IMG/VR virus record: IMGVR_UViG_3300042197_000966
Location: 1-64,000 of that record
From: a virus
Strand: one strand, 5' to 3'
DNA: 64,000 nucleotides
Shown here: positions 1 through 32,300 of the stretch, in pieces
How positions within the stretch are numbered: position 1 is the first letter of the stretch
Layout: every line of letters starts with the position of its first letter
Notes under the pieces: model-generated
Seen by the model: the letters and a program-made list of their open reading frames with translations, nothing else
What the model was told of the DNA's origin: nothing
Databases searched by the model: none
Made by a program: the position numbers and the translations under genes

Positions 1-690
1 GAAATTATCAAAGAACTTAAAAAGTATGTTATTGCATCGGTTGAACCAGTAATTGTAGATCCTTCAATTCTATACGTTGAAGTGAATAGCAAAATTTATT
101 ACAACTCTTCGATTACTTCAGATACTCCTTCTCAAATTAGAGATAAAGTAATAGGAGCATTACAAAACTATATTGAATTATCGGACATAGAAAAGTTCAA
201 TGGTAAATTTAGATATAGTAAAATTGTTGGTGTGATTGATGAAACGGATAAGTCAATCAACTCAAATATAACATCAGTTACAATGAGGAAAGATTTCTAT
301 CCTCAGCTCAATTCTACATTCTATTACGAGATCTGCTATCAGAATGCATTTGATAAAGAATGCGATACTTCAATTCTGTCTACGACTGGTTTTAGAGTTA
401 CAGAATACCCAAATTTTGATGTCTATCTTGAAGATAGGGATGGTCTAATTGTCCTATATACACTAGATGCTGTAACTGGTGAAAAGATTGTTCTGGACAA
501 AGAAGTTGGAACTATTGATTATGAAAAAGGTGAATTAAAAATGTATGATCTAACTATCATAAAAGGTAGTTATTTTGATAATAGAATTTCAGTTAGAGTA
601 AAACCACTGTATAATGATATTCAGGCATTCCGTGAGGTATACCTTGATGTTGATATTGCTAATTCATCCTTTAGTGCGTATAAAGAGTAA
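1..690 (+). CDS. gp6: Baseplate wedge subunit gp6, C-terminal part (5'-truncated by the window)
   Basis: Frame is open from base 1 (EIIKELKKYVIASVEPVIVDP...). FNGKFRYSK and GTIDYEKG segments are typical of T4-like gp6. Lies directly upstream of gp7/gp8. Confidence 0.85.
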   Translation, partial: EIIKELKKYVIASVEPVIVDPSILYVEVNSKIYYNSSITSDTPSQIRDKVIGALQNYIELSDIEKFNGKFRYSKIVGVIDETDKSINSNITSVTMRKDFYPQLNSTFYYEICYQNAFDKECDTSILSTTGFRVTEYPNFDVYLEDRDGLIVLYTLDAVTGEKIVLDKEVGTIDYEKGELKMYDLTIIKGSYFDNRISVRVKPLYNDIQAFREVYLDVDIANSSFSAYKE

Positions 691-694
691 GTAG

Positions 695-3600
695 ATGGCA
701 GTTAAGACCAAAAGAATTTCTACTCTAATTGAGTCACAACTTCCAGAGTTCATTTCTAATGAATATGAACTTTTTGGCAAGTTTGTAGAAAAATATTATG
801 AGGCTCAAGAGGTTCAAGGGGGACCGCTTGATATTCTTAGTAATCTGCAGAAATATCTAGATATTGATTACTATGAGAAGTCTTTACTTCAGCAAAATAC
901 TACTCTTGTTACATCAATTACTTCTTCATCTACAACCGTAGTATTAGAGGATGCTTCTGGATTTCCAGAAAAAAATGGATATGTGCAAATTGGAGATGAA
1001 ATTATTTTCTATGGCGAGAGAACTGGCAATACACTAACAAATTGTTCCAGGGGTGTTAGTGGCAATATTGCTTTGGGTGATTTGTATGAAAAATCTTCTT
1101 TTGTTGGAACAACATCGGTTGCTCATTCTTCTGGAGATTTAGTTCTTAACATTAGTAATTTGTTTTTGTATGCTATTGTTAAAAACTTTGAATCACAATA
1201 TCTAGGTTCTTTCCCAGAAAAATATTTGCGTGGGGAAGTTGACAAGAGAACTTTAATTAAAAATATACAAAAATTTTATAAGGCAAAAGGAACTGATAGT
1301 TCTATAAAATTTATTTTTAATACTATTGTTACTCAAGATAGCACTAACAAACCAGAAGTTTATAAACCAAGAGATTTTGTTTACAAATCTTCCGAATCTG
1401 ATTGGATTAGTGTCTATGCAATTAAAGCAAAGATTGTATCTGGAGATCCAAAAAATTTAATTGGAAAACAAATAGTTCAAATAGAGACAGAAGAATATCA
1501 ATATGCATCAGCAATTGTTGATAATGTTTTTCCAGAAGGAACTTCTGATAACGAACAAATTTGGAATATAGTAGTTGCTCCAGAAACAGTTAATGGATCT
1601 TTTGCAATTTCAACAAAAACCCGTCTAGAAAAACAATTACAATCAAACAGTGGTTTTGGAAAAAGAGTAAATGTTTTTTCTACAGTTGGATGGGATCTTG
1701 CTGGAGAAATATTAATTGGAAATGAAACAATTTCCTTTGATGATAAAAATGCAACTCAGTTTATTATCAAAAGTAGAGGATCTAATCCAGCAACGTATGA
1801 GATTGGAGATCCAGTATATAAACCAGTAATTCTTCAAGGATCTAACGTTAAACTACTAACACTCGGGGTTGTTTATAATTTTGTACCAGAAAATGCACAA
1901 CCATATTCATATACTGGAGATGAAGTACAAGTATCAGATCCTGGTTTTAAAACAATAGATCCAAAAATTGTTATTACTGGTTCAAATCAACCAAGATGGT
2001 TTTTATCTCAGGGATCATCTCCTGATGTACCAACAATACCATCAATCAATACGGAATTGAGTGAGATATCAACAGATATTTCTGCAATTTTTGAAGATGA
2101 TCAATATTATTACATTGCAAGCTCTAGTTATCCATCCCATAAAATTTTAGATGGTTCTGTTGTTACAGAAAAACTACTAGATCAAAAACTGCTGAGAATT
2201 ATTAGAAAAGAAGCAACAAGAACTACCGAAATATATAAAACTCCAAAAAGAGACGTTGGCATTCTATTAAATGGTGTACCCATTTTTGGTTACAAGGATG
2301 AAGAAAGTGTAAGATTTGGTTTATTGGAAGAAATTAAAATCAACACTCAAGGAACTGGTTATGCAAAACCACCATTTGTTTTATTGGATGGAGTTCCAAA
2401 TCAAGCAAGAGCTTTATTGAGTGGTCAAGTTGTAGAGAAAATTATTGTTGATACGAATACAATATTTCCAAGAACCCCAGAAGTTTTGATAACCTCTGGT
2501 CGTGGAGCGGTTGTACGTGCAGTAGTAACAAAAGGAAAGGTTACTAGTCTCATCATAGATAATCCAGGAGAATTTTATTCTTCTCCCCCAACTGTAAGAA
2601 TTAGAGATCGTGCTGGAAGAGGAAGATTTGCAGATTTTACAGCAGTTGTAAATACTGATGGCAAAATTACTGATTTCATAAAAAATGAAGAAGGTAATTT
2701 TTATGATCAAGCAACAGTAATAGTTGATATTATCCCAGTTGGTAATGGAGCATCTGCCACTCCATTTTTAAAGGAATGGAATAAAAATAGATTTGTCAAA
2801 TTATCCGATAATTTGGATACGGAATATGGACACGTTTTTAAAAATTATAATAACGTTTTAGAGTATGGATATGGTCAGGTAGCAAATCCAAAATCCCTCA
2901 GAATAAGTTTAAATGACAATCTAAATGCTACATTGGTAGAACCAGTAACAAAAACTCATTCTCCTATTATTGGATTTGCATATGATGGCAATCCAATTTA
3001 TGGTCCATTTGCATATGAAAATCCATTAGATCCTCAATCTTCGATTATAAGAATGACTTCTAGTTATTCTTTAAACGGCAGTCGTCCAGGCGGTCCAGGA
3101 CTTTCTGAATATCCAATTGGAACATTTGTAAATGATTTTAAGTATACACACAAGAGTGGAACTTTAGATGAAAACAATGGTAGATTTTGTGTTACTCCAG
3201 ATTTTCCTGCAGGAACATATGCATACTTTTTGACAATCGATAGTAATCAAATTCCACAATTTCCATATGTTATTGGAGAGAATTTTTATTCCCTTCCAGT
3301 TGATAGTAATTACAATTCAAACATCAGTCAAAATGATATTCCGAAGAAATCAAAAAGATTGTTTACTCCAGGAATGCCAGGAAATGGAGATGGTGTCATT
3401 GCTCAAATTTCTGATGTAAAACCAGGATTTGTTGATTCGATCGAATTACAAAATTCATCAAGCAATTTTTCAGTAAATTCAAAAGTATACTTTGATAATA
3501 GTAGAACAGAAGGTCAGGATGCTGAAGCTATTGTGTCTTCTGTTGTTGGAGAAAATGTAAATTATTTACAAAGTAAAGAAAATAAAGTAGTACAACTAAC

Positions 3601-6600
3601 AATTATTCAAAACGCATACTTATTTGCAAATGATACCCTCAGTCAACCAAATTCTGGTGCATACGGAGAAATTGTTGGAAATGTTGTAAGTGATAATGTT
3701 ATTGTATTAAAAAATGTTGTTGGTGTTTTCAATGGGACTGGAACATTCTCAGCAGCTATAAAAACTTTCTCTATTCTGGTTGATCAAGATAGTTCTTACA
3801 CTGCTGGCGCCATTTTATCTTTAACAGATGGCATTAATTTACCAATAGCAACAGCAGAAGTTTTAGAAACAACTTCTAGACAAAATGTTGTTAAGATTAA
3901 AGTTCTCAGTGGAACCTGGATTGTTGATGATGATTATTTCTTACAATCCAATAATTTGTTTAATACTTCTGGATCCAGAATTGTCAGTCTAACGTCTCTG
4001 AGTGATGGTCTCATACCATTTGATGTAAATCAAAATGTTGCATTGGTTGAGACAAGTAGTGAACATGGATTGGGTATTGATGATGAGGTAGTGATTAATA
4101 TTTTACCAGATGATGCAACTAAAACAAAGACATATTTTGTAAGAAAAAGATTATATCAAAAGGTAAAGTTTGTTTCTCCAAGATATTCTTCAACAATTGA
4201 TTATACTGGTATTGGAAGATTTGAAATTTTAAATGGTGGCGCATATTATACGCCAGGAACATATACAAATATACCATTGACTGGTGGATCTGGTACTGGC
4301 GCAAAAGCTAATATTACTGTTTCATCAGCTGGAATAGTTTCCTCAGTTGTTATTCAAGATGGAGGATCAGGTTATAAAAAATATGATTACTTAGGTGTTG
4401 ACGATGAATCTCTTTCTAGATCTGGATCTGCAAATGCTGGTAGTTCTAGATTAGTTGTATATCTAGATCATGTTGGATTTGCTGCATCTTCTACATCTTT
4501 AATTTTAGAGGATGCTTTGGGTCTTTCTTTAAATGATTATTTAATAATTGGAAAAGAAGTCATACGTGTTTCTGCTATCAATGGAAACAAATTGACAGTA
4601 TTGAGATCACAAAAAGGAACACAAGCAGCTGATCATTTTAATGGTCAAGTAGTCTCACTGTATGAAGAAAAATATAATTTTAGTAATAATTTTCAATTAT
4701 CATCTTCTCAGTATTCTGGATTTATCAAAACATATGACTACGAAACTCAAGAAGCAATAATTGTATTTAATTACACAACTACAAAATCAAACGCAGAAGA
4801 AGTTCAAATTAGTACAACTTTCTTTGATTCCAGTACTCCAAAAAAATTAGTTTCTGTTGTTTCTGCAGAAGATATTAGTTACAAATTTGAATTTTCTGAA
4901 GACAATTCTCTGTTCGTTCCAAATCCAACTATAAACATTCAAGAGTTCTACAAGTATAAATTTGATACATCACACTCGTCTCTGACTGGAACATACTTTG
5001 ATTTAAGTCCTAGTAAAACTTTTAATTTGATAACAGAAGAAAAAAATACGTCGTCTGTTTTACCTGGAAATCCTGGATCATTTACAGATGTAAAATTTGG
5101 ATTTGGACCAAGACTATCTTCAAATTCATATTTGAATAAAATAGGAACAAATTTTGCTAATTTTTATTATTTTGATAAAAATGGAATAGTCACATCTGAT
5201 GGTTCTTATTTGAAAATTATTCAAGATCCTCTTCAGGGAACCAAAAAAATTACATATGTAACTCCAACAAGATTTGTATATCAATTAGATTCAGTTCCTC
5301 TGTGGGATGGATCTGGATCAATATCTTATACAACTACTGGGCAATTTGCAATAGGTCAAATTAATTCATTTAAAGTTATTAACTTAGGATTAAATTATAA
5401 AAAAGCACCAATAATAGTTGGTTGTGATCCAAATACAAACTTTAAAGCAAAAGCAACAGTTCTATATGATTATTCTACAAATGTTGTTACTGGTGTCAGA
5501 ATAGATGACACTGGTTCAAATTATACAAATCCAAAAGTTTTTATAAAGAATGGAGATGGTGTTGATCTTTCTTTTAATGTTGTGGTAAGAGATGGTAAAA
5601 TATTCTCAATTACTGTAAGCAATCCAGGAAAAGGATATACATTTGCTCCAGAAATTGAAATCATTGAGGGTGATGTTGAAGCATATGTACAAAGTTCTAC
5701 AATTGGAGTTCCACAAAGCATCACGATTATAAAAAATGGAGGGGCATTCCATTTAGATAAAACAGTATCTTCATCATTTACATCAAAATATATTTTCTCG
5801 TTAGAAAATTTTTCGGGAGAATATCAAAAAGGAGAAGTCGTAGTCCAAGTAATAGATGGTGTTGAAGTTGCACGAGGAATTGTATCTGAATGGAGACGTG
5901 GTTCAAATTTATTAAAAATAGAAAAAATCACTGGTATTTTTAGGCAAGGATATCAAATTAAATCTATATTAAATTTTACTGTTGGTACAATAAAATCTGT
6001 ATTTGTAACTACGTTTGGCGCAGAAATTTCTAGTTTCTATGATAATCTTGGTTATTATACTTCTGATAGAGGAAAACTTGGAGTTGCAAATCAAAAACTT
6101 TTAGATAGTGATTTTTATCAGGACTATTCGTATGTTGTAAAATCAAAAACTCCAATTAATGTTTGGAGAGATTTAATTAAATCTACAACACACCCAGCTG
6201 GATTTAAATTATTTGGTCAAGTTGACATTGAAGGTATTGGAAGCACATCGATGCCTTCTCAACAAATTAATAAAAATGATCACTTTTCGATTATTCAACT
6301 CTGGGATCCAGCAAAAAATAAAGTTACTGTCGAAAATACGAGAAGAACAGTTACGCAAGTTATCCAAAAAATTGAAAACCAACGAATTAAGAGAGGATTT
6401 GGTTCTGCTGCACCATCAGAGTTTAATTTTAATGAATACATTTCTTTTGAAGTTAGTCTGGTGCAACCATTTAATGGATACTATGATAGTGATGGTAGAT
6501 TGCAAGGAAGAACGGTATTTGATCTAGAAGATAATAATGGCAACCCATTTACTCCATTCAATGCAAAATCTTTAATCATTACTTTGGATGGTATCTTACA

Positions 6601-9600
6601 AGAACCAGAAGTTGCATATACAGTTCAAGCAAATACTATTATTTTTTCAAAACCACCACTGGGACCAGGAGCAGAAAGAACAGGTAATAATTTAAACGAT
6701 ATTACTTCTTACAAGGGCGTAACTTTCTATGGTAAATATTTTTCTTTTAAAGATACTCAATACAATACAAGATATCTAAGAAAGATTAGAAATATTTTCC
6801 AAAGAAGTGGTAGATGGTTAGATGCTGCTAATCAAATAGAAAGAAACAAAACTTTCATTGTAGAGGAATCTATTGGATATGGAAAAAACAAATATCCGAC
6901 ATTGGATTGGAGCACAAAAACTGATGATTATCAAAGAGATATTGGTTATTTACTAGATGCTTATCAGCATGATGTTAGATTTGGTGGAAACACCAAAACT
7001 GTAGATTATGTTAATATCTTTAGGAATGATACTGATTATGATTACATTACGAAGAATAAAACAAAGTCTTTAGAAATATTTAAATATGCAACAAAACTTG
7101 CAAATCTTGCAGTAAGAAATTGGGATATTGTTGAGAATAATATTTCTTACACACAAGGTTCTTCTACTATCACAGTTGAAGATAGTGAGAGACTTGCAAT
7201 TGGAATGTATATTAGTTGCGGTAGAGCTTATCCAGCAAATACCAAGATTACTGCAATTAATAGCGCAACTCAAATTACAGTATCAAATAATGCCTTATCA
7301 ACTTCTGGTTCCGATCAGGCAACTTTCTATCTGAGTGGCATTAATAATGGAACTTTTTATGATGCATCAAATTTAATTCAAGCAAATAAAGAATTCCTGA
7401 TAGAATTTATTAGTGAATATATTTATACCAGCACCAATCTTCCGCAATCTGATAAAGAAAAATGTAAGAGAGATCTTGGATACTTAGTTGATGCTGTTGT
7501 TTATCATTTAAGATTTGGTGGAAATCAAAAGATAGTTGAATTTGCTCAATCTTATTATACATTTTCATCATATCCTTACGGAGAAGAACTTACTTATATT
7601 AATAGATCACCAGAAGAAACAAGCGCAGCAATACTTGCTTGGGATACTCTTAAAGATGGAATGATTCTCGCTATGAGAAATCAGCTGACTACTGGAGGAT
7701 CATATACTTCTATTCTACCAGTAACAGATAACACAATTTTAGTCGATCCAATTAATCCAGTTTGTCAAGAAGTTGCATCTAGTATCAATACAATGATCGA
7801 CATTGTAAAAGATATTATTGCGAGAGGATCTGGAGTAGTTTCAATTACTCCAATTAATACTAACAAATCTGGTCAATGGTCAACTACAACAACATATTCA
7901 AATTATAATTTAATACCAGATCCACTCATTCTTTCCTCAGAATGTGCTGATGTTGTTTCTTCTGTTAATTCTTTATATTCAAATGTAAAAAATATTTTAG
8001 ATAAGAAAACTGTCAAGAGAACATATCCAGATTATGTTGATGGCGAAAATAAAACTTTTGAATTATATTGGGATGACGGAAGTGAAGTTATAACTGAAGA
8101 AGATGAGGATCTATTTTTAACGATCAATGCTGTCTTACAGAGACCAAAATATACAGAGACATATCCAGGTTCTGATTCATATTACATCAATCGTGAAGTA
8201 ATACCTAATGAAATTGTATTTGATGTCGCACCAATATGGGATCAAGATTTTAGTGCAAAAAGCATTGGAGAACCAACAGCAGTTGAAAAAGTTGTTGGTA
8301 TAGGAGTTGGAAACTATAAAAGACTTACTATTGATACTAGTTTAGTCGATGGAATTAGTTCTGGTCCATTCTTGATACTTGATGTCGAAGACTTTACTGT
8401 ACAGAATATCGAAGAATCAACTTTCCTGTATGTATTTTTAGATGGTGTTTTACAGAGAGAAGGATATTCTTACATAGTTTCTGGTCCAAATATCTATTTT
8501 AATGTTCCTATTGTTAAGGAAATGAAAGTAGATATGAGATATTTGTATGGTCGTGATGTCGGTCAAGTTCTCAATATCTATGATTATAACCCAGACACAT
8601 ATTATGCGAAAGGAGCTGTAAGTTTAACTATTACAAGCGGTCTCTCTGATTTGTTGAAATATGAATGGGCTGGAAATAAAATTGGAGAACCAATACACGC
8701 ATATCAGATTAATGCAAATGGCACCTATAATATGATAGGTCAAATATCAGATGGATATGTTTCTGGTTCAAATATATTGAATTTTAATGTCTTTGGTGCA
8801 AAGGCATCTATTGACATCAGTAAACCAGTTTGGTTTGCCATACGTGGATTTTATAATACATTAAGAATAAGTGTAAATATCTCTGCTGCAGGTATTACAT
8901 ATGAATTAGATAGCACTGGTAAAACCATTCTTTCGGATAATGAGCAGATTTGGTCTGGAACATATCTAGGAAAAACATACAAGAGACCATTTATTTCTCT
9001 ATCAAATAATGATTTGATCAGAGTTGATGGGGAAGAAGGTTTTAGAAAAATCAAAAAATTACCAGGAAGAGTTACTAGTAAAGAGCAAAGACAATACGAA
9101 CAAGTTTCAAATTCATTCTATGGAACTGTTGATATTGAAACTTACAACGGTATTACAAGGGGAGAGGGATTAAGTGTAGTAGCTAAAGTTGAAAACGGAA
9201 AAGTTACAAAACTTGAATGGAATAGAAGAAGTTACGAACCATTAACTCAACCAACTGCATATCAATATTATACTCCTCCAATTCTTAATTTTATTCCAGT
9301 TGATGGAAATGGTGGAGGAGCAAGAGCAAATGTTCTTGTCAGCAAAGGTCAAGTTATCAGCATTGATATTATTGATGGCGGATCTGGATATACTCAAGCT
9401 CCAAAAGTTGTAGTAGCAAGAGGATATGATATTCTCACAGAAAGAGATATTGGTGTTTCATTAATTAATATTGGTGTCAATTCATTTGTTGAACATGGTG
9501 GGTATACAGCATTCTCATCTATTGATGTATTAGGAAATCAAGTTTCTGGAGTAAATTCGTTTACATCAATTTTCTTTGATAGTCCTATATCTACTGATAG

Positions 9601-11650
9601 AGTAATTACTGCTCAGATACAACTTTTAAGATCTGCTGGTAGTAACTTAACTAAGAAACAAACACAATTAATTGTTCAAGATGCCCCATTTGCAAGTGAT
9701 ATTAAAAAACTGGATGTATTTACAAATACAAATCAATATATTAGTGTCATTCGTGGAAGACTTGCTGATGTAATTACATCTTCTATTGTTACAACCAATA
9801 GACAAATTACAACCAGTTTTGAAAATCTAATACCAAATGATGCATTATCAAATGTAAATTACTATACTACTGGCGGATTTTTACAGGTTGATCTTGCTAT
9901 CGCTGATAAGGTTGTTTATGTTGCAGATACAAGCAAGTTTAAATCTAATGGATATCTACTAATCGGTAATGAAATTGTTAGATATTACAGAAAAATTAAT
10001 GATCGTTTCTTAAATGTAGAAAGAGGTCAGAGAAGCACAACTGCCCAATTCTGGGCAGCAGGAACAGTAATATTACAACTACCAGATCCAGCATCTAGCG
10101 TATTTGGTGGAGTTGTGATTGTAGAATCTGCATCTCAAACTGCTACTATCAAAGGTGGTTTGGGAACGGTTTCTGCTTCAACAACAAGAACAGAATACCA
10201 AGACATTACCCCACCAGTATCAATAGCGACTACAAGTAGAATTATTGAAATTGATATTGCTCCATCAGCAAAAGCAATAACAATGAGTAGTCTGGTAACA
10301 ACCAGAACTTCTAGATCTTATGAAACTACCTCATCTTCTATAAAGTCATTTGTAACCACAGGTTCCGTAAAACAATTAGAAGTTGATATTCAATCAATCA
10401 CTTCCAAAGTTTCTTCACTATTAACAAAATTTGAACTTTTACTGATACCACCACCAACTGGAGTTGTTGATGGATATGTAGAAAATCTGTACTGGACAGA
10501 TCCTATTTTACAAAGAAGTGGTTCTTTTGTTACTCTTGATAATTCAATTTATGGTAGACATGTAGTTCAAAGAAATAATTTGATTGTTCAAGTCAGAAAT
10601 CTTTCTACTACTGATGCAGAATATATTGGAACATACGAAGTTACCAATGCTGGTCATACAATAAATCATTTCAATATTCTAGCTGATGATGGTGTATCAA
10701 ATGTTTCTGGAATTACATTAGAAGAATTGGAAAGATATTATCCAACTTTATCAATAGAAGATTTTGAATTAAAAGGAAAATCTAGTTATACAACAGATGG
10801 ATTTTATTTTGTATTAATGCCACCTTCAATTCAAAATCCTGTAGTAGTTCCATTCTCAACTGGATCTATAGCATCAACTATTGAAGTCCCAACAACTACA
10901 TTCTTCCCAACAAGTGGTTATCTATTTACTGGATCAGGTGGTCTTATTCAATATACTGGTAAGACTTCTACATCATTTACTGGTTGCACATCGGTAAGGG
11001 GATCAACTACTTTAATTGGAAATTCTGTAAGTTTTGATGGAACTGGTTACTTAAATATTGCTTCAAATAATGCTTTCAATTATGGAACTGGAGATTTTAC
11101 CATAGAGTTTTATTGGAAACCAAATGCTCTTAGCGGAACGCAAGTTTTGATAGATCAAAGAACTGCATCAACAGATGTTTCAATTTATGTTGAAATGAAT
11201 TCTTCTGGAAATATCAGGGTATTTGTTAATGGAGCTTATAGGATTACATCTTCAAATACGTGTAGCACATCTCAAGACAACCATGTTGCCATATATAGAT
11301 CTTCTGGAATTACAAGAGTTGCTATCAACGGAACTGTAACTACCACATCAACATACACCGATACTAACAACTATGCTTCTAAACCATTTAGAATTGGAGC
11401 TTCTTGGACTGCCAGTTCCTTTATTTCTGGTAGAATTAACAGTTTGCGTGTTGTAAAAGGAACTTCATTGTATTCTAACACAAACTTTACTCTTCCATCT
11501 CAAATAACAAACATTTCTGGAACATCTTTACTAACATGTCAAGGAAACTCAATAAAAGATAGAAGTTCTAATAATCTATCTATTACAGTAAATGGAGGTG
11601 CTGTCGTTTCCAATACTGGAAAGGAAATCATTCCTTTTGAAATCACCTAA
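695..11650 (+). CDS. gp7: Giant baseplate wedge initiator gp7-like protein (3651 aa) with YHYH-like, phycobiliprotein-like and C-terminal LamG/ConA-like domains
   Basis: N-terminal ISTLIESQLPEFI...LIKNIQKFYKAKGT and internal DSDFYQDYSYVVKS...THPAGFKLFG motifs of cyanophage gp7. Positioned between gp6 and gp8. Confidence 0.8.
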   Translation: MAVKTKRISTLIESQLPEFISNEYELFGKFVEKYYEAQEVQGGPLDILSNLQKYLDIDYYEKSLLQQNTTLVTSITSSSTTVVLEDASGFPEKNGYVQIGDEIIFYGERTGNTLTNCSRGVSGNIALGDLYEKSSFVGTTSVAHSSGDLVLNISNLFLYAIVKNFESQYLGSFPEKYLRGEVDKRTLIKNIQKFYKAKGTDSSIKFIFNTIVTQDSTNKPEVYKPRDFVYKSSESDWISVYAIKAKIVSGDPKNLIGKQIVQIETEEYQYASAIVDNVFPEGTSDNEQIWNIVVAPETVNGSFAISTKTRLEKQLQSNSGFGKRVNVFSTVGWDLAGEILIGNETISFDDKNATQFIIKSRGSNPATYEIGDPVYKPVILQGSNVKLLTLGVVYNFVPENAQPYSYTGDEVQVSDPGFKTIDPKIVITGSNQPRWFLSQGSSPDVPTIPSINTELSEISTDISAIFEDDQYYYIASSSYPSHKILDGSVVTEKLLDQKLLRIIRKEATRTTEIYKTPKRDVGILLNGVPIFGYKDEESVRFGLLEEIKINTQGTGYAKPPFVLLDGVPNQARALLSGQVVEKIIVDTNTIFPRTPEVLITSGRGAVVRAVVTKGKVTSLIIDNPGEFYSSPPTVRIRDRAGRGRFADFTAVVNTDGKITDFIKNEEGNFYDQATVIVDIIPVGNGASATPFLKEWNKNRFVKLSDNLDTEYGHVFKNYNNVLEYGYGQVANPKSLRISLNDNLNATLVEPVTKTHSPIIGFAYDGNPIYGPFAYENPLDPQSSIIRMTSSYSLNGSRPGGPGLSEYPIGTFVNDFKYTHKSGTLDENNGRFCVTPDFPAGTYAYFLTIDSNQIPQFPYVIGENFYSLPVDSNYNSNISQNDIPKKSKRLFTPGMPGNGDGVIAQISDVKPGFVDSIELQNSSSNFSVNSKVYFDNSRTEGQDAEAIVSSVVGENVNYLQSKENKVVQLTIIQNAYLFANDTLSQPNSGAYGEIVGNVVSDNVIVLKNVVGVFNGTGTFSAAIKTFSILVDQDSSYTAGAILSLTDGINLPIATAEVLETTSRQNVVKIKVLSGTWIVDDDYFLQSNNLFNTSGSRIVSLTSLSDGLIPFDVNQNVALVETSSEHGLGIDDEVVINILPDDATKTKTYFVRKRLYQKVKFVSPRYSSTIDYTGIGRFEILNGGAYYTPGTYTNIPLTGGSGTGAKANITVSSAGIVSSVVIQDGGSGYKKYDYLGVDDESLSRSGSANAGSSRLVVYLDHVGFAASSTSLILEDALGLSLNDYLIIGKEVIRVSAINGNKLTVLRSQKGTQAADHFNGQVVSLYEEKYNFSNNFQLSSSQYSGFIKTYDYETQEAIIVFNYTTTKSNAEEVQISTTFFDSSTPKKLVSVVSAEDISYKFEFSEDNSLFVPNPTINIQEFYKYKFDTSHSSLTGTYFDLSPSKTFNLITEEKNTSSVLPGNPGSFTDVKFGFGPRLSSNSYLNKIGTNFANFYYFDKNGIVTSDGSYLKIIQDPLQGTKKITYVTPTRFVYQLDSVPLWDGSGSISYTTTGQFAIGQINSFKVINLGLNYKKAPIIVGCDPNTNFKAKATVLYDYSTNVVTGVRIDDTGSNYTNPKVFIKNGDGVDLSFNVVVRDGKIFSITVSNPGKGYTFAPEIEIIEGDVEAYVQSSTIGVPQSITIIKNGGAFHLDKTVSSSFTSKYIFSLENFSGEYQKGEVVVQVIDGVEVARGIVSEWRRGSNLLKIEKITGIFRQGYQIKSILNFTVGTIKSVFVTTFGAEISSFYDNLGYYTSDRGKLGVANQKLLDSDFYQDYSYVVKSKTPINVWRDLIKSTTHPAGFKLFGQVDIEGIGSTSMPSQQINKNDHFSIIQLWDPAKNKVTVENTRRTVTQVIQKIENQRIKRGFGSAAPSEFNFNEYISFEVSLVQPFNGYYDSDGRLQGRTVFDLEDNNGNPFTPFNAKSLIITLDGILQEPEVAYTVQANTIIFSKPPLGPGAERTGNNLNDITSYKGVTFYGKYFSFKDTQYNTRYLRKIRNIFQRSGRWLDAANQIERNKTFIVEESIGYGKNKYPTLDWSTKTDDYQRDIGYLLDAYQHDVRFGGNTKTVDYVNIFRNDTDYDYITKNKTKSLEIFKYATKLANLAVRNWDIVENNISYTQGSSTITVEDSERLAIGMYISCGRAYPANTKITAINSATQITVSNNALSTSGSDQATFYLSGINNGTFYDASNLIQANKEFLIEFISEYIYTSTNLPQSDKEKCKRDLGYLVDAVVYHLRFGGNQKIVEFAQSYYTFSSYPYGEELTYINRSPEETSAAILAWDTLKDGMILAMRNQLTTGGSYTSILPVTDNTILVDPINPVCQEVASSINTMIDIVKDIIARGSGVVSITPINTNKSGQWSTTTTYSNYNLIPDPLILSSECADVVSSVNSLYSNVKNILDKKTVKRTYPDYVDGENKTFELYWDDGSEVITEEDEDLFLTINAVLQRPKYTETYPGSDSYYINREVIPNEIVFDVAPIWDQDFSAKSIGEPTAVEKVVGIGVGNYKRLTIDTSLVDGISSGPFLILDVEDFTVQNIEESTFLYVFLDGVLQREGYSYIVSGPNIYFNVPIVKEMKVDMRYLYGRDVGQVLNIYDYNPDTYYAKGAVSLTITSGLSDLLKYEWAGNKIGEPIHAYQINANGTYNMIGQISDGYVSGSNILNFNVFGAKASIDISKPVWFAIRGFYNTLRISVNISAAGITYELDSTGKTILSDNEQIWSGTYLGKTYKRPFISLSNNDLIRVDGEEGFRKIKKLPGRVTSKEQRQYEQVSNSFYGTVDIETYNGITRGEGLSVVAKVENGKVTKLEWNRRSYEPLTQPTAYQYYTPPILNFIPVDGNGGGARANVLVSKGQVISIDIIDGGSGYTQAPKVVVARGYDILTERDIGVSLINIGVNSFVEHGGYTAFSSIDVLGNQVSGVNSFTSIFFDSPISTDRVITAQIQLLRSAGSNLTKKQTQLIVQDAPFASDIKKLDVFTNTNQYISVIRGRLADVITSSIVTTNRQITTSFENLIPNDALSNVNYYTTGGFLQVDLAIADKVVYVADTSKFKSNGYLLIGNEIVRYYRKINDRFLNVERGQRSTTAQFWAAGTVILQLPDPASSVFGGVVIVESASQTATIKGGLGTVSASTTRTEYQDITPPVSIATTSRIIEIDIAPSAKAITMSSLVTTRTSRSYETTSSSIKSFVTTGSVKQLEVDIQSITSKVSSLLTKFELLLIPPPTGVVDGYVENLYWTDPILQRSGSFVTLDNSIYGRHVVQRNNLIVQVRNLSTTDAEYIGTYEVTNAGHTINHFNILADDGVSNVSGITLEELERYYPTLSIEDFELKGKSSYTTDGFYFVLMPPSIQNPVVVPFSTGSIASTIEVPTTTFFPTSGYLFTGSGGLIQYTGKTSTSFTGCTSVRGSTTLIGNSVSFDGTGYLNIASNNAFNYGTGDFTIEFYWKPNALSGTQVLIDQRTASTDVSIYVEMNSSGNIRVFVNGAYRITSSNTCSTSQDNHVAIYRSSGITRVAINGTVTTTSTYTDTNNYASKPFRIGASWTASSFISGRINSLRVVKGTSLYSNTNFTLPSQITNISGTSLLTCQGNSIKDRSSNNLSITVNGGAVVSNTGKEIIPFEIT

Positions 11651-13553: not shown

Positions 13554-13562
13554 TTTATATTT

Positions 13563-13608
13563 TACTCCGCTAAATATTAACGACTAGATGTTTGTATTTG
13601 GCGGAGTA
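13563..13608 (+). promoter_or_regulatory. Late promoter (CTAAATA) within the 5' arm of an inverted repeat that pairs with the RBS of the next gene
   Basis: TACTCCGCTAAATA (13563-13576) pairs with TATTTGGCGGAGTA (13595-13608), one G-U pair. GGAG lies just upstream of the ATG at 13611. Confidence 0.65.
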
Positions 13609-13610
13609 CG

Positions 13611-26335: not shown

Positions 26336-29300
26336 ATGAGTTTAGAATTTAATGCTGACAAACAGTATCTTAAGGGAACCAAACCTTACGTTCTAGGAAC
26401 AAGCGAATTTACGATACGTGCTGGAACAGGAGCAAGTGAAAAAGAGGTTATGCGTTGGCAGCTAGATGCAACGCAGCAACTTACCCGTGTAGGTATTAAC
26501 AGAAATGGTCAGCAAGTTGAAAAAATTACATTAACAAATACTGGTGGTGGTTATTCTTCTACTCCAACAGTTACGATCAGTGCTCCAAATTTAGCAACTG
26601 GAAGGCAAGCGACAGCAAGTGCCTTGATTAACTTAGGAACAGTTGCTGCAATTATTGTAGATGATCCTGGCAATGGATATACATCTACCCCAACTGTTAC
26701 TATTTCTGGCGGTGCTGGTAATGGAGCGACTGCTACAGCAACTCTTAATAGTATTGAATATGAATTAGATGTTAATGGTGCTATAAGAACTTCCACGTCC
26801 ATTATTTCTGATACAGCAAGAGTTATTAACCTAGATTTCGTTAATCTAACAACTGCTGATGGAACATTTCGTGCTCCATATTTAAAACTATATGCTAATA
26901 ATACTGGAACATCCTGGTTAGCATCTACGGTTGTTAGCAAAAATACTTTTAGATATTTTGGAGATAATATCTATCGTGTAAATCAAGATGGAACAACTGG
27001 AACAAATGCTCCAATTCATACAAGTGGTGAAGTCGCAAATGGAACTACAATACTGGAACATGTAGGATATAGAGTAAATAGTCCTTCTTTGCCTCATTAT
27101 GGAATAACGGGTGATGGAATATTCCCAAGATCTATTACTCCTCTTCAAGGTGATAGATCAAATAAAATTGCTACAACTGAATATGTTTTAAGTCTTGCTA
27201 CAAATGACGTTGGTGGTCGTATCTATGTTTCTGAACAAATTGGAGATGACGCAAACGATGGTCGTTCGGCAGTAAATCCAGTTAGAACAATTAAAAGAGC
27301 CTGTCAAATTGCTACTGGAACTGTTGGAGTAAGAGAAACTGTTATTATTTCTGGTGGCGATTATGTAGAAGATAATCCAATTTCAATTCCACCTGATTGT
27401 TCTATTGTAGGAGATTCACTTCGCATTGTTAATGTCAGACCCCTGAACGGTGGTAAGCACATGTTCAAGTTTGCCGACAAAAATTATATTACTGGTATTA
27501 CATTTAGAGATCGCCTAGATTCAGCTGGAAATCCCATACAGACATGGGACTATGCTTGTGCATTTGACGATAAGCAAAGAATTTACTATGATTCAAATAG
27601 TGGCGGTGACTATGGTAGGGATTTTCCTATTGGTTATCAAATATTTGGAAGACAAGAATACAGAATTACATTTTCAGAAAATACTGGTAATGCTCAAATA
27701 GCAGTTGGAGAAACTATTTGGGGAGAAACAAATAACGCAAATGCCACTGTAACTAATGTATTCTATAATGCAACAACTGGAGCATCTGCATATGATACAG
27801 GATATATCGATGTTGTTTTAAATCAAAATAGTAACCAGTTAAGCACTGGAGATAGATTTAGATATGGTGGTCCTGCTCCAAGTCTAGGAACTTTTACACA
27901 ACCTTGGTTAGCTAATACATCGTTTCCTGCTAATGTTTATCTATGGACTACTGGAACTAGTGGAAATCCTGGTCGCGTATATTTAACGACTGCGGCAGTT
28001 ACGACTGGAGCTGCTACTCCATCACATACATCTGGTACAGTTTCAAATCTTTTATATATCAGAGATCGTCTCCAATTTACTTCTTCAACAATTACTTCTA
28101 TTAGACCAGAAGGAGAAATTGTATCAAAGGGAGAAGATTTAATATCTCAACTTCCAATTACAAGAATTGATGCTTCGGTTGCAACATATAACACATATGG
28201 TGGTGTAGTAATTTACACCAATCCACTTGTAGGTGCATCTAACGTTCATAACTTCAAAGAAAATGAAGAGATTGAAATTTTTGGTTTGCCAACATCGTCA
28301 CCAGATCTTTCTTGGTTGAATGGAAAACAACGAGTTTATAAAATTATTGAAGATGCTGATGCTAGATCAAGAAGAATTGTTATTGCAAAGGAAGGAAATA
28401 GAGTAGGATTTACACAGAGCAACTATGCACCACTATCTGCTTATGTAAGATCATATTCATATTACTTTACTCTTTCCCTTCTCAATTCACCATATAAGTT
28501 TCCAATAACAGATTATGTAAGTAGAAGATATCAAGATGCTTGTAATTTAATTCGCAATAATCTTGAATTTATTAAAGATGAAACTTATCAAATTATCGAA
28601 GATGAATTTAGTCCCAATTTTACTATAAGTTCTATTGTACCAACAACTGGAACTGGTTTGGATCTAGGAAAAGTAATTGTAAGAATAACAACATCTGTTC
28701 CTCATGGGTTCTATGTTTCTGATAATGTCACCATTAAAAAGACAACATTTGCATCTGGTCTTTTAAATGGAAATTATATTGTTACAAATAGAGTAAGCTC
28801 TACAGTATTAGAAGTTCAATATACTGGCACAGTTGCAACATTAGGATTAACTTCTGGAACTACTTATAATAATGCAGCAATTGGAACATCTTCTTTTATA
28901 CAAAGAGGATTTGTAATTCCAAGCGAGACAAAGTGCCGTAGAGACATCGGGCATTTTGTCAATGCCATCATCATGGATCTTGAGTATGGCGGAAACTACC
29001 ATGTGGTAGAAGCTGCAAAGAGATACAGAAACAATGGTGTTCTTGGATATGTTGGTAACGAACTTGCATACACTGTAAGATCTCTTGAGGTTGCTAGGAG
29101 ATTGTGCATTTATGCAATGCGTAACTGGAGATTGGAAGATGGTAAATATTCTCAACCAACTTATACTCCAAAATTCTCATCATTAAGTCGTTACTTTGAT
29201 TTAACTGTAACAGAAGATACTTCTGGTGCAACCACAAATGGATTTACTTGTTCTGATGTAGCAAGTGCTATTACTACATTAGCATATCTTTATACTGATG

Positions 29301-32300
29301 TTTTATGCAATAAGACAGTAACCAATAGTCCTACCGTAGGAACTATGGAGGATGCTGGTTACCTCATCATGGCAAACGCGGACTTCATTGCTTCAGAAGC
29401 ATCTGAGTTTGCCTATGCACAGTTCCCAGTCGTTGCAGCGTCGCTTACAGATGACCAGAAGAGAAAGTGTAAGAGAGATATTCGTTATATCCTTTCTGGA
29501 CTGACAAGAGACCTTATTGGTGGTGGTAACAGTGGAATTGTTACGGCAGCAGAATCATATTTTACAGGAAATACTTTATCTGGCATTCCATCGAATGAAC
29601 TTGCTGCTACTCGTTCTGCATTTTCAAGAGCAAGAGATCTTTCAATTCAGGCAATTCGTAACTGGAGTAATGGAACTGTTACTACAAGGACCGCAACAAC
29701 TGCAACATATAACTCAACCAGTGGCGTTCTTACCGTAACATTCCCAACTCCAACCACTCCAGTCACAACTGCACATAAATTAGCATTCAAAGAACGTGCA
29801 TTAACATTTAGTTGTGCATCTGATGGTGGTGGAAACTTAGCAAGTCCTCAACCAACAGATAGAAACTATGGTAAGAGTTTATCAATTTCCAATGTAACAA
29901 CTGGTGGTGGAAATCAAACGGTTACTGTTAATGTTGGTGCTGCTGGAACGGCAGCTGGCGTTGCTCATACATTTGTAAGTGCATTGGCAAATGGAGTTAT
30001 CATTATCTACGATCCAGTAACTCCAACATACGAAACAAACATCACAAGAGTAGAAGATTGGAACATTGCTCTATATGGTTCAAATCCACTTTGCGCTAAC
30101 GTAGCATCTGCAATTACTACAGAATTTACAACTCTTGATAACATTCTAGGTGGCACTGTTCTTCCTGGAGCAACAACAAAAACATATGGAACTTTATATG
30201 ATCCAACGGTAACATATCCAACAGGTGTCATGATTGACAATGATGGATATTATATTACACCAAGAGGAAGATGGGATGATCTTCCAATCATTGAAGCTTC
30301 TCCATACATTCAAAATGCTTCAGTAATCTCATTTAAAGGTGGAGGTGGATGTGAGGTTGATGGATCTAAAGTCAAACAACCAAACTGTCCTTTCCCTGGA
30401 TTAGAAGCAGATGGTTCTGCAACTTATCCAAATCAAGGTAAATCAATGGTTGCGGCACAATTTACGATTGTGTCATTTGGTGGAACTGGTTACAAAATTG
30501 TAAAAGATGGATATACTCAGTTAGTTTCGGTATTCGTTCTCTTCTGTAAAGATGGAGTATTAGCAGAATCTGGTGGATATGTATCAATTACAAACGCCGC
30601 TACAAACTTTGGTATCTATGCTCTACGTGCTGTGGGTTATAGAGAAAATGCTTATTCTTTTGATACTGGAATAATTACAAACGTAAGTGAAACAGTAACT
30701 GGAAGAACTATTCTAACAGTAGGAAGTCTTGGTAGAAAACCATTAGAGCACTATGTTCTTAAAATCGATGGTTATACAAATCAAGGCGAATCAATCGAAT
30801 ACTTTATTGAAAAAGTAACATCCGCTTCTGTTGGACCTATTTTCACTGCAACGTTTGAAGTCAATGCTGCTATGTTATTAACGAGAACTTCCGATGGAGC
30901 TCTCTTTAATTCTCCACTATCTGGTGCAGAATTTACAGGAAAAACTATAAAACTACATAGACCATCTATTGTTAATTCCTCTGGTCATACTTGGGAATTT
31001 GCTGGAGCAGGAACAAATTATAAAGCTCTACCAGAAAATGGCGGTAAGAAGATCGAAGCATATGAGCAGGTATCGGAAAACTATGGTCGTGTTTATACAT
31101 CTGGTACTGATGAACTTGGTGACTTCAAAGTAGGTTATTTTGCTAAGATTGAGAACAGAACTGGTAACATTACATTTACTGGAACGGTTTCTATCTCAGA
31201 AGTTGAATTCCTCAAGCTAAAAGGTGGAGATGTTGTTGTTACTGGATTTACTTCTGATAACACCCTAGGCGGTGCTGCATCATCAAATAGTTTGCTTCCA
31301 ACCCAAAAAGCAGTTAAAGATTATATCACAACTAACCTAGGAACATATATTAATAAACCATATTCAACCAATGCTGTTCCAAGAGCACTTGTTGAACTAA
31401 CCGATAGCGGAAAGATTTCAATTGATCAAATCCCTGCCTTAAGACCATTCAGTGTGTATACTGTTGCCGACCAAGCAGAGAGATTAAAACTAGAAGGAGC
31501 ACTTGCTGGTGACATTGCAATCGAGCAAGACACATCAACATCGTATATTTTAAATAATGATTTAACAAGTCTATTCTTAGGATTTGCTGTCAATCAGGCA
31601 CTTCAATTTACAATAAACAATCTCTTTGTTGGAACGCCAGGTGGAGGTCAAATTCAAGCAAAAGAGTATAGGCAAGGTGTAGTTTATCAAATCAATATTA
31701 CAAATGGTGGAAGTGGTTATTCTAGTGCTCCTAGCGTAACGTTTAGTGCTCCACAGCAAGGTGGTGGTGTTACCGCTACTGCAGTAGCGACAGTTGCTAA
31801 TGGTCAGGTTACTACCATTACTATCACTGAGACTGGAGGATTGAAAGGTGGTAGAGGATATACTTCTGCCCCAACGATTACCATTGCTTCTCCTGGTGGA
31901 GCTGGAACAACTGCTACTGCAACATGTTTGATTGAGAGCAGATTGTATGGTAATATAACAAACAATATAAAGATAGTAGATATAGATACAATACAATCTT
32001 CCAATGGAACTCCAATAACTGTTGATATCAATCGTGTTGTAAATACTTCAGCATTTACAGCATCAAACTGGGTATCACTCTCCTCAAATCAAGTTGCGGC
32101 AGATCAAATTACTTCTGGTGTAATTGCCACAACAAGACTAGCAAGTAATTCTGGTGCTGCTAACTCAACAACCTTCTTAAGAGGTGATCAAACATATGCG
32201 CCAGTTATCCAGTCTATCAAAGGTGTTGAAACAAGATATTTTGTAAAGACTTCAAATCAGACAAATTCTGGTGGTCAGCAACTGTTCTTTACAGAAGCAC

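What the first reader, a model, noticed from the sequence alone, without database searches (positions are those of the whole stretch)
6821..8000. The same phycobiliprotein-like module occurs twice, apparently nested, in baseplate protein gp7
Seen in sequence: copy A is DAANQIERNKTFIVEESIGYGKNKYP...DDYQRDIGYLLDAYQHDVRFGGN...AVRNW, with Tyr in place of the Cys84-like residue. Copy B is DASNLIQANKEFLIEFISEYIY...DKEKCKRDLGYLVDAVVYHLRFGGN...AMRNQ (Cys codon 7463). Two closing helices follow in succession: VCQEVASSINTM (7763) and ECADVVSSVNSL (7943). Inference: copy B is inserted within copy A before its last helix. The module is therefore present in two different tail proteins, four copies in total. 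The last-helix Cys is kept in all four and the CxRD Cys in three. Retention of the last-helix Cys where the other is lost argues against a simple disulfide pair and fits a beta-155-like site, the class of site served by T-type lyases. A location in the baseplate, which triggers sheath contraction, would suit a light-gated switch.
Basis: partly seen in the sequence, partly recalled or inferred. Interest (0 to 1): 0.85.

Follow-up and report, generated by a model that had tools for sequence, protein, structure and literature searches.

The report
Nested phycobiliprotein-like modules in cyanophage baseplate
The giant baseplate protein of this marine cyanobacterial virus holds two domains, one inserted inside the other, that are true relatives of the host's light-harvesting pigment proteins and keep the pigment-attachment residues, so it can now be tested whether the virus particle carries pigment; pigment binding itself is not shown.

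Summary
ORF 695-11650 (3651 aa) sits at the gp7 position of a T4-like Synechococcus myovirus. It holds two copies of a helical module, and ORF 26336-35179 (tail-fibre type) holds two more.

A 22-sequence profile of the module hits only phycobiliproteins in the PDB (best E 4e-5). In 304 cyanobacterial genomes its only hits lie in ORFs of PBP-subunit size; all nine loci examined were PBP alpha-subunit genes. hhalign gives 94-97% probability, against 1.1% or less for shuffled controls. AlphaFold models superpose on phycocyanin and phycoerythrin beta chains (Z about 16, 130 residues at 2.0 A).

The nesting is supported. Copy A's helices A-G plus the distal helix (aa 2414-2435) form one globin-like domain. 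Copy B, with its own helix H, sits in copy A's G-H loop.

The C-x-R-D cysteine is kept in 3 of 4 copies. The last-helix cysteine is kept in 4 of 4 and aligns with the beta-153/155 site.

The module was found only in cyanophages among 50,697 phage records. It co-occurs perfectly with a CpeT-like lyase gene in 17 genomes, but one evolutionary event can explain that.

Bilin binding and light gating remain untested. This scan has already noted the same module on at least 24 other genomes.

The parts
695..11650 (+). Giant virion protein (3651 aa) at the gp7 position. It lies between a gp6-like ORF (phrog_219) and a gp8-like ORF (phrog_438), both baseplate wedge genes.
   Evidence: phrog_4406 matches over aa 3-3440. 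phrog_2885 and phrog_708 (baseplate wedge subunit) also match. The P-HM2 orthologue is annotated gp7.
6806..7141 (+). Copy A, helices A-G (aa 2038-2149). Tyr2079 (nt 6929-6931) replaces the Cys84-type Cys; the Arg-Asp pair is kept (YQRD).
   Evidence: E 3.3e-42 to profile A1. AF2 helices 10-112 of model m09e0babc5978. Pfam PF00502 match at E 8.3e-5, 23.0 bits, on the 500-aa piece.
7127..7333 (+). Beta-rich inserted domain (aa 2145-2213), the first part of the insertion in copy A's G-H loop.
   Evidence: AF2 strands 116-184. It resembles Ig-like domains of phage tail and head proteins 8eci, 9n71 and 9jlf, Z 7-8.7 over 68-70 residues. Orthologues carry a further Gly/Ser-rich insert of about 50 aa here.
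7343..7702 (+). Copy B, helices A-G (aa 2217-2336), with Cys2257-Lys-Arg-Asp (Cys codon 7463-7465).
   Evidence: E 1.9e-40. phmmer aligns KEKCKRDLGYLVDAVVYHLRFGG with phycocyanin alpha residues 77-110.
7727..7825 (+). Copy B's G-H loop and helix H (aa 2345-2377), with Cys2357 (codon 7763-7765).
   Evidence: It fits the family's G-H loop and helix H consensus (H-helix profile score 37.3). AF2 helix 329-348. PBP beta chains align to model residues 189..347.
7934..7999 (+). Distal helix (aa 2414-2435) that closes copy A as its helix H, with Cys2417 (codon 7943-7945).
   Evidence: AF2 helix 385-406 has pLDDT about 88. CpcB residues 34..172 align to model residues 9..407 with 130 residues at 2.0 A, Z 15.8-15.9. 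8imk_G aligns to 8..407 at 2.0 A. The upstream TYSNYNLIPDPLILSSEC fits the G-H loop consensus.
26336..35179 (+). Second module-bearing protein (2947 aa), of tail-fibre type (phrog_5342).
28520..29305 (+). Copy C. Helices A-B (nt 28520-28624), a beta insert, helices E-G with Cys-Arg-Arg-Asp (nt 28922-29140), and helix H with Cys (aa 965-990, nt 29228-29305).
   Evidence: The fold of copy C was not shown separately by structure search.
29336..30148 (+). Copy D. Helices A-G with Cys-Lys-Arg-Asp (nt 29336-29683), a beta insert of about 140 aa in the G-H loop, and helix H with Cys (aa 1244-1271, nt 30065-30148).
   Evidence: CpcB residues 32..172 align to model residues 279..552, 131-133 residues at 1.8-2.2 A, Z about 16.

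Best explanation
SHOWN (confidence about 0.9)
- The region encodes two members of a cyanomyovirus-specific branch of the phycobiliprotein (PBP) family. Each is a globin-like core of helices A, B, E, F, G and H, without the N-terminal X-Y hairpin.
- Copy B, preceded by an Ig-like beta domain, is inserted in the G-H loop of copy A. Copy A is therefore closed by a helix about 265 residues downstream of its helix G.
- Two further copies sit in a tail-fibre-type protein.
- The family keeps the residues that hold bilin in PBPs. These are the Cys84-type Cys and Asp87-type Asp on helix E, and in cultured phages a second Cys at the start of helix H that aligns with beta-153/155.

INFERRED (my most likely mechanism, about 0.4)
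- During assembly in the infected cell, at least some modules are covalently loaded with a bilin.
- The helix-E site would be served by host S/U-type lyases or by autocatalysis. The helix-H site would be served by the phage or host T-type lyase (CpeT/CpcT).
- The baseplate and fibres would then carry a few dozen chromophores.
- Copy A, which has lost its helix-E Cys, could carry pigment only at Cys2417.
- What the pigment would do (light sensing, photoprotection or simply stabilising the fold) is open.
For: Homology
- Profile A1 against the PDB: all 60 listed hits are PBPs, best E 4e-5, covering PC-alpha residues 37-103 including K-C-x-R-D-I-G-Y.
- Pfam PF00502 is the only marginal family hit.
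- In six-frame searches of 3 + 301 cyanobacterial genomes, every hit lies in an ORF of 163-220 aa at the same profile positions, E 7.5e-6 to 8e-3 per genome. In all nine loci examined the hit is a PBP alpha-subunit gene next to a beta-subunit gene, and four ORFs checked in Pfam are PF00502.
- hhalign of the module against a PBP alignment gives probability 94.2-96.6%, E 6e-10 to 1e-7. Reversed or column-shuffled controls give 1.1% or less.

Fold
- VIA-align gives Z up to 16.5 to PBP beta chains, and 130 residues at 2.0 A to CpcB (Z 15.8-15.9).
- In a search independent of Foldseek, the top seven chains are all PBP or ApcE, Z 12.5-14.7.

Nesting
-.

Site conservation
- In 243 metagenomic modules: Cys1 91%, Arg 86%, Asp 99%.
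- 160 modules have Cys1 only, 62 have both, 13 have Cys2 only.
- In 14 isolates plus the window: Cys1 58/67, Asp 63/67, Cys2 53/53.
- The extended hhalign alignment places Cys2 on the beta-subunit 'GDC'.

Distribution
- tblastn finds the module only in cyanophages, in 155 and 150 of 50,697 phage records.

Lyase
- A CpeT-like ORF is present in 14/14 module-bearing genomes and 0/3 module-less genomes (Table 3 of PMC3037559).
- cpeT lies within about 3 kb upstream of a module protein in S-PM2, Syn1 and S-RSM4.
- The role of phage cpeT is described as unresolved (PMC3037559).

Phenotype
- P-HM1 and P-HM2 (modules and cpeT) do not adsorb in the dark. P-SSM2 and P-SSP7 (neither) do (PMC6628666).
Against: - No chromophore has been observed, so every step of loading is inference.
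- Arg of C-x-R-D is kept in only 35/67 sites of cultured phages, with 16 'CxDD' and 9 'CKTD' variants. That does not fit a classical bilin pocket for those copies.
- Copy A has lost Cys1, and in some orthologues also Arg.
- Metagenomic arrays of up to 36 modules, many of them without a helix H (as in L020), look like rod-building repeats.
- The X-Y hairpin is missing, so alpha-beta pairing as in PBPs is not expected.
- The three module-less, cpeT-less phages form one clade (100/100). The co-occurrence is therefore one event and carries little statistical weight.
- P-SSM2 carries bilin-synthesis genes but no module.
- No cpeT lies in this 76-kb record (the record is 39% complete).
- At whole-database scale the PBP match is not significant. 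No PBP appears at E <= 1 among 5.8 billion sequences, and Foldseek gives E 0.03 or worse.
- The AF2 models have mean pLDDT of only 66-67.
Confidence: 0.4

Rival explanations
1. Pigment-free scaffold. The module descends from a captured host PBP gene but now serves only as a rigid helical building block and insertion platform of baseplate and fibre proteins. The conserved Cys and Asp would serve folding, helix packing, or inter-chain or inter-module disulfides in oxidising seawater.
For: - Tandem arrays of up to 36 units occur in giant proteins.
- Many units lack helix H.
- Large domains are inserted in the B-E and G-H loops.
- Arg is replaced in about half of the sites in isolates.
- Copy A tolerates Tyr at the Cys site.
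- The P-SSM2/S-SM2/S-SSM7 clade lacks the module altogether, so it is dispensable for a working T4-like cyanophage tail.
Against: - Cys is kept at 87-91% and Asp at 94-99% in copies that otherwise share only 20-35% identity.
- Replacements of that Cys are bulky residues in degenerate copies, not Ala, Ser or Gly as pure packing would allow.
- 130 of 243 modules have a single Cys and so no intramodule partner.
- It is unclear why a cytoplasmic antenna protein would be the scaffold of choice in cyanophages only.
Confidence: 0.35
2. The old bilin pocket now holds something else. This could be a metal, a different tetrapyrrole or cofactor, or a host-surface ligand, with Cys and Asp as ligating residues.
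For: - The Cys and Asp spacing (i, i+3) is conserved even where Arg has become Asp or Thr.
- Other positions are strongly conserved: Asn on helix A at 94%, GGN at 82-87%, and an invariant Tyr. The GGN and Tyr positions are not obviously conserved in PBPs.
- Sensor globins that bind haem are the next-best structural neighbours, Z about 12.
Against: There is no positive evidence for any particular ligand. No His or second Cys is conserved as typical metal sites would need.
Confidence: 0.1
3. Chance or convergent resemblance. The module would be an unrelated helical bundle that happens to carry a C-x-R-D motif.
For: - The Foldseek E-values (0.03 and worse) and the single-sequence Pfam score are marginal.
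- Helical bundles often give Z of 12-14 (note).
Against: - The profile finds PBPs and nothing else in the PDB (all 60 listed hits).
- In 304 genomes every hit lies in an ORF of PBP-subunit size, and all nine loci examined are PBP alpha genes.
- hhalign gives 94-97% against 1.1% or less for shuffled controls.
- The order of helices, the Cys84-type site and the beta-153/155-type site all coincide.
Confidence: 0.04

Closest known systems
Phycobiliprotein beta subunits (CpcB, CpeB, cryptophyte beta chains; Pfam PF00502)
   Same: - Globin-like helices A-H superpose: Z up to 16.5, and 130 residues at 2.0 A on CpcB.
- Cys-x-Arg-Asp sits at the start of helix E.
- A second Cys lies at the G-H loop/helix H boundary, as at beta-153/155.
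- By sequence profile, phycocyanin alpha is the best match.
   Different: - No X-Y hairpin.
- Embedded in 3000-aa virion proteins, not free 17-20 kDa subunits.
- Tolerates whole-domain insertions in the B-E and G-H loops, including another copy of itself.
- Arg is often replaced in other phages.
- No evidence of bilin or of disc or rod assembly.
- Found in phages only; no true module turned up in 304 cyanobacterial genomes sampled.
PBP-like domain of the phycobilisome core-membrane linker ApcE (4xxi, 7sc7, 7eyd, 9wg7)
   Same: A PBP domain built into a large multidomain protein and interrupted by a loop insertion. It is among the best structural matches (TM 0.65; Z 12.5-13.5).
   Different: ApcE is a host antenna component. 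From my own knowledge, it attaches its bilin autocatalytically at a different Cys. The phage module has the canonical Cys84-type position.
Globin-coupled sensor and stressosome-type sensor globins (4uiq, 3pmc, 4zva, 2bnl)
   Same: The same fold class. These are the next structural neighbours, Z 9-12. They are sensory domains fused to other modules.
   Different: No sequence-profile match. They bind haem or no ligand and lack the C-x-R-D site.
T4 gp7 baseplate wedge protein
   Same: Gene position between gp6-like and gp8-like genes. PHROG baseplate-wedge families match the N-terminal third.
   Different: From my own knowledge, T4 gp7 is about 1000 aa. No non-cyanophage record among 50,697 carries the module.

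Membership tests
Phycobiliprotein family (Pfam PF00502) | Match to the Pfam model above its gathering score (22.2 bits) | tested here: inconclusive
   Copy A scores 23.0 bits (E 8.3e-5) within the 500-aa piece but 16.4 bits within the whole protein. Only 4 of 22 module sequences match at E <= 1, best 0.0034.
Phycobiliprotein family (Pfam PF00502) | Specific, reciprocal profile similarity to bona fide PBPs | tested here: met
   All 60 listed PDB hits are PBPs, best E 4e-5. In 304 cyanobacterial genomes every hit lies in an ORF of PBP-subunit size, and all nine loci examined are PBP alpha genes. hhalign gives 94-97% probability against 1.1% or less for controls. The match is not significant at the scale of 5.8 billion sequences.
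Phycobiliprotein family (Pfam PF00502) | Globin-like fold with helices A, B, E, F, G and H in PBP topology | tested here: met
   AF2 models (pLDDT 66-67) superpose on PBP beta chains: Z up to 16.5, and 130-133 residues at 1.8-2.2 A on CpcB. PBPs top the search that does not rely on Foldseek. These are predicted, not solved, structures.
Phycobiliprotein family (Pfam PF00502) | N-terminal X-Y helix hairpin that makes the alpha-beta monomer | tested here: not met
   The tightest structural alignments start at residue 32-34 of the beta chains. Profile matches start at residue 35-38. Nothing resembling the hairpin precedes helix A in the sequence.
Phycobiliprotein family (Pfam PF00502) | Cys84-type Cys followed by Arg-Asp on helix E | tested here: met
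   Present in copies B, C and D. Copy A has Tyr-Gln-Arg-Asp. Family-wide frequencies are Cys 87-91% and Asp 94-99%; Arg is 86% in metagenomic modules and 52% in isolates.
Phycobiliprotein family (Pfam PF00502) | Beta-subunit second site (Cys153/155 in the G-H region) | tested here: inconclusive
   A Cys precedes helix H in all four copies. It falls on the beta 'GDC' Cys in the extended hhalign alignment, but that part has low posterior confidence. The 53/53 count in isolates comes from a profile anchored on that Cys and is biased.
Phycobiliprotein family (Pfam PF00502) | Covalently bound bilin chromophore | not testable with these tools
   This needs spectroscopy or MS of virions or recombinant modules.
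T4-type gp7 baseplate wedge protein | Gene between gp6 and gp8 homologues, and similarity to baseplate wedge families | tested here: met
   phrog_219 lies upstream and phrog_438 downstream. phrog_2885 and phrog_708 match within the ORF. The P-HM2 orthologue is annotated gp7. Presence in the virion was not checked for this phage.

The most novel reading that the evidence does not exclude
The modules are the missing substrate of the cyanophage T-type lyase CpeT. Loaded with bilin, they would make the baseplate and fibres a virion-borne photoreceptor that permits adsorption or baseplate triggering only in the light. This would explain the light-dependent adsorption of phages such as P-HM1, P-HM2 and S-PM2.
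Probability: 0.15. Interest if true: 0.95.

Novelty: new variant of a known kind. Interest (0 to 1): 0.75.

Why it matters
Three puzzles about marine cyanophages are unresolved.
- Most T4-like cyanophages carry a lone cpeT lyase gene without a known substrate (PMC3037559).
- Some carry bilin-synthesis genes even when the host has no phycobilisome.
- Some need light merely to adsorb (PMC6628666).

A host antenna domain sits in the baseplate and fibres with its chromophore-site residues under selection. It is restricted to cyanophages and always accompanied by cpeT. That gives all three puzzles one concrete, cheap test: look for bilin on virion proteins.

If no pigment is found, the module is still a clear case of a cytoplasmic host protein being turned into a tail building block. 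It is also a clean example of one domain nested inside its own paralogue.

Tried and rejected
Searches that gave nothing usable
- Foldseek against the PDB gave no match at E <= 0.001, although almost all of the listed top rows were PBPs.
- The search for homologous proteins with the profile at near lengths returned only module fragments. No PBP appeared at E <= 1 for 5.8 billion sequences.
- The representatives search listed only giant repeat proteins in its top 150, so it could not show PBPs.
- Gasper et al. 2017 (PMC5336146) is not held. What I say about phage CpeT lacking a substrate rests on PMC3037559 and my own memory.
- No paper describing PBP-like domains in phage tails was found with four searches. 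That is not proof that none exists.

Readings considered and dropped
- An intramodule disulfide between the two cysteines was rejected as the general explanation. 160 of 243 modules have only Cys1 and 130 have a single Cys.
- A Fisher test of module against cpeT (1/680) was rejected, because the three double-negative phages are one clade.
- cpeT was sought in this record and not found, which is uninformative because the record is 39% complete.

Limits of what was done
- Nesting rests on aligned ranges and sequence consensus.
Full report
WHAT IS THERE

The window comes from a T4-like Synechococcus myovirus. Nucleotide matches are to S-RSM4, the ACG-2014 phages and S-CAM4 at about 70%. The portal-like protein is 88% identical to that of S-RSM4. 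The record is a 76-kb fragment, 39% complete.

ORF 695-11650 encodes 3651 aa. It lies between a gp6-like gene (phrog_219) and a gp8-like gene (phrog_438), and it matches baseplate-wedge and virion-structural PHROGs. Calling it gp7 is therefore reasonable by position.

- Asp2043 is at nt 6821.
- Tyr2079 stands in place of Cys.
- Cys2257 is at nt 7463, Cys2357 at nt 7763 and Cys2417 at nt 7943.

Copies A and B align at 29.6% identity over 115 aa, E 6e-11. Both also match two stretches of ORF 26336-35179, a 2947-aa tail-fibre-type protein (phrog_5342). A profile search of the whole record finds exactly these four modules.

WHAT THE MODULE IS

I built a 22-sequence alignment (A1) from the window's copies and from related viral contigs. 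Sequence evidence:
- Against all PDB sequences, all 60 listed hits are phycobiliproteins. The best E is 4e-5, covering residues 37-103 of phycocyanin alpha, which is helix A through helix E with K-C-x-R-D-I-G-Y.
- Pfam finds only PF00502, at marginal scores.
- I searched six-frame over three, then 301, genomes of the cyanobacterial phylum. Every hit lies in an ORF of 163-220 aa at the same profile positions. In all nine loci examined the hit is a PBP alpha-subunit gene lying beside a beta-subunit gene, and four ORFs checked in Pfam are PF00502. No genome holds a true module.
- I took PBP alpha and beta sequences from cyanobacterial loci fetched with a short motif pattern. Profile-profile comparison gives probability 94.2-96.6%, E 6e-10 to 1e-7. 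The reversed or column-shuffled PBP profile gives 1.1% or less.

Structural evidence:
- An AlphaFold model of aa 2030-2445 (13 orthologues, mean pLDDT 66.5) has PBPs as almost all of its listed Foldseek hits, but only at E 0.03-0.15.
- VIA-align gives Z up to 16.5 to PBP beta chains, with CpcB superposing over 130 residues at 2.0 A, Z 15.8-15.9.
- In a search that does not depend on Foldseek, the top seven of 48,161 chains are PBPs or ApcE, Z 12.5-14.7. Sensor globins follow at Z about 12.

Structure alone says a globin-like fold, with PBPs best. Sequence says PBP specifically. I take homology with the PBP family as about 90% likely. The X-Y hairpin of PBPs is absent.

NESTING

In other phages the module is one contiguous unit of about 150 aa. 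Helices A-G are followed by a loop of the type TY..TD.TI..DP and a helix that begins C-[AS]-[DN]-V..[ST][AS]I. P-HM2 gp7 and S-ShM2 show this.

In this window:
- Copy B has exactly that loop and helix directly after its helix G (aa 2345-2377).
- Copy A's helix G is followed instead by a beta domain and then the whole of copy B.
- After copy B's helix H comes TYSNYNLIPDPLILSSEC-ADVVSSVNSL, a second loop and helix of the same type.

In the model, PBP beta chains align in two ways:
- To residues 9..407, with 130 residues at 2.0 A. This is copy A plus the distal helix.
- To residues 189..347. This is copy B plus its own helix.

The fibre protein shows the same insertion site. In copy D a 140-aa beta domain separates helix G from helix H, and CpcB residues 32-172 align across it (model 279..552, 131-133 residues at 1.8-2.2 A, Z about 16). 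Copy C carries an insert between helices B and E.

Model coordinates cannot be inspected, so this rests on aligned ranges and on sequence consensus.

THE CYSTEINES

The family is large. It has 1560 cluster representatives at E <= 0.001, including giants with up to 36 modules.

In 243 full-length modules from these proteins:
- The helix-E Cys is kept in 91%, Arg in 86% and Asp in 99%.
- The last-helix Cys is present in 31%.
- 160 modules have only the first Cys, 62 have both and 13 have only the second.
- 130 modules have a single Cys.

In 14 cultured cyanomyoviruses plus this window:
- 58 of 67 helix-E sites have Cys and 63 have Asp.
- Only 35 have Arg. 16 are CxDD and 9 are CKTD.
- All 53 detected last helices have the Cys. 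My helix profile was anchored on that Cys, so this last count is biased.

An extended profile alignment puts the last-helix Cys on the 'GDC' Cys of beta subunits (beta-153/155). That part of the alignment has low confidence.

In 13 orthologues of this gp7, copy A always has Tyr, sometimes without the Arg, while Cys2257, Cys2357 and Cys2417 are invariant.

DISTRIBUTION AND THE LYASE

tblastn with module stretches against 50,697 phage records finds only cyanophages, in 155 and 150 records.

I searched 17 complete T4-like cyanophage genomes for the module and for CpeT (PF06206):
- 14 genomes have modules, and all 14 have a CpeT-like ORF. Two of these (P-SSM7 and S-ShM2) pass only by summed score. 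This agrees with Table 3 of PMC3037559, read with the column order from its supplement.
- P-SSM2, S-SM2 and S-SSM7 have neither.
- Those three form one clade with 100/100 support in a portal-protein tree. One event explains the pattern, so no p-value should be attached.

In S-PM2, Syn1 and S-RSM4, the clade that holds this window, a full-length cpeT lies within about 3 kb upstream of a third module protein. This record holds no cpeT, but it is incomplete.

PMC3037559 calls the role of phage cpeT unresolved and the role of phage bilin-synthesis genes a mystery.

PMC6628666 reports that P-HM1 and P-HM2 do not adsorb in the dark, while P-SSM2 and the podovirus P-SSP7 do. The first two have modules and cpeT and the last two have neither. 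This is suggestive, but it is two lineages against two.

HOW IT MOST LIKELY WORKS

Shown: PBP-family modules, nested, sit in proteins of the host-recognition apparatus, with selection on the chromophore-site residues.

Inferred, about 0.4: some modules are loaded with bilin in the infected cell.
- Cys1 would be served by host S/U-type lyases or by autocatalysis.
- Cys2 would be served by the phage or host T-type lyase.

Main rival, about 0.35: a pigment-free scaffold whose Cys and Asp serve folding or cross-links. The Arg replacements, the long tandem arrays and the module-free clade speak for this rival.

A light-gated switch in the baseplate is a further step, which I put at about 0.15.

The lack of any report of coloured virions is not evidence against pigment. 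My own estimate assumes 6 copies of gp7 as in T4 and perhaps 18 fibre chains. That gives at most about 90 sites per virion, or an absorbance near 0.015 at 1e12 particles per ml.

NOVELTY

Four literature searches found no description of PBP-like domains in phage tails.

This scan has already noted the same module in at least 24 other genomes. Its follow-ups reached the same reading: true relatives, pigment not shown. It also noted the fibre copies of this window.

What is specific here:
- The nested arrangement, and copy A's loss of the first site with retention of the second.
- The clade-level co-occurrence with cpeT, and the caveat that goes with it.

I class the finding as a new variant of a known kind.

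Noticed in passing
window 2768-3256 and 11036-11458: The same giant protein carries a YHYH domain (PF14240, E 3.8e-31, aa 692-854) and a C-terminal concanavalin/Laminin_G_3 domain (PF13385, E 3.5e-16, aa 3448-3588). These may be binding modules.
   Followed up: no
window 7127-7333: The beta domain inserted with copy B resembles Ig-like domains of phage virion proteins (8eci Arthrobacter phage Bridgette, 9n71 tail tube, 9jlf head-to-tail interface), Z 7-8.7 over about 70 residues. Orthologues add a Gly/Ser-rich stretch of about 50 aa here.
   Followed up: partly
L020:1-5016 (IMGVR_UViG_3300008120_000384): A giant protein with at least 10 tandem modules of about 115 aa, most of them apparently without a helix H. 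It also has a run of five tandem 'last-helix'-like units without Cys (SSSF..I..II.NG). This is a different architecture of the same family.
   Followed up: partly
loci L197-L216 (module regions of 14 cultured cyanomyoviruses): Two recurrent variants of the site motif occur: C-x-D-D (for example NCEDDIRDI) and C-K-T-D (RCKTDLGLI). They keep Cys and Asp but not Arg. They recur across genera, as if they were distinct module subtypes.
   Followed up: partly
L183 (S-PM2 151000-168500): In S-PM2, cpeT sits inside a tRNA island. It is followed by a 2OG-Fe(II) oxygenase gene and then the 3779-aa module protein S-PM2d218 and a short-tail-fibre gene.
   Followed up: no
W16 (P-SSM4) 16642-17064; W15 (P-SSM7) 13416-13832; W05 (S-ShM2) 15536-15958: Short, divergent CpeT-like ORFs (145-149 aa) pass PF06206 only when the two stretches are summed. 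A 2010 review says P-SSM4 lacks cpeT (PMC2984593), but the profile finds a 148-aa ORF there.
   Followed up: partly
window 13611-21707: Another giant ORF (2698 aa) directly after the gp8-like gene matches only PHROGs of unknown function (phrog_358, phrog_877). It holds no PBP-like module.
   Followed up: no
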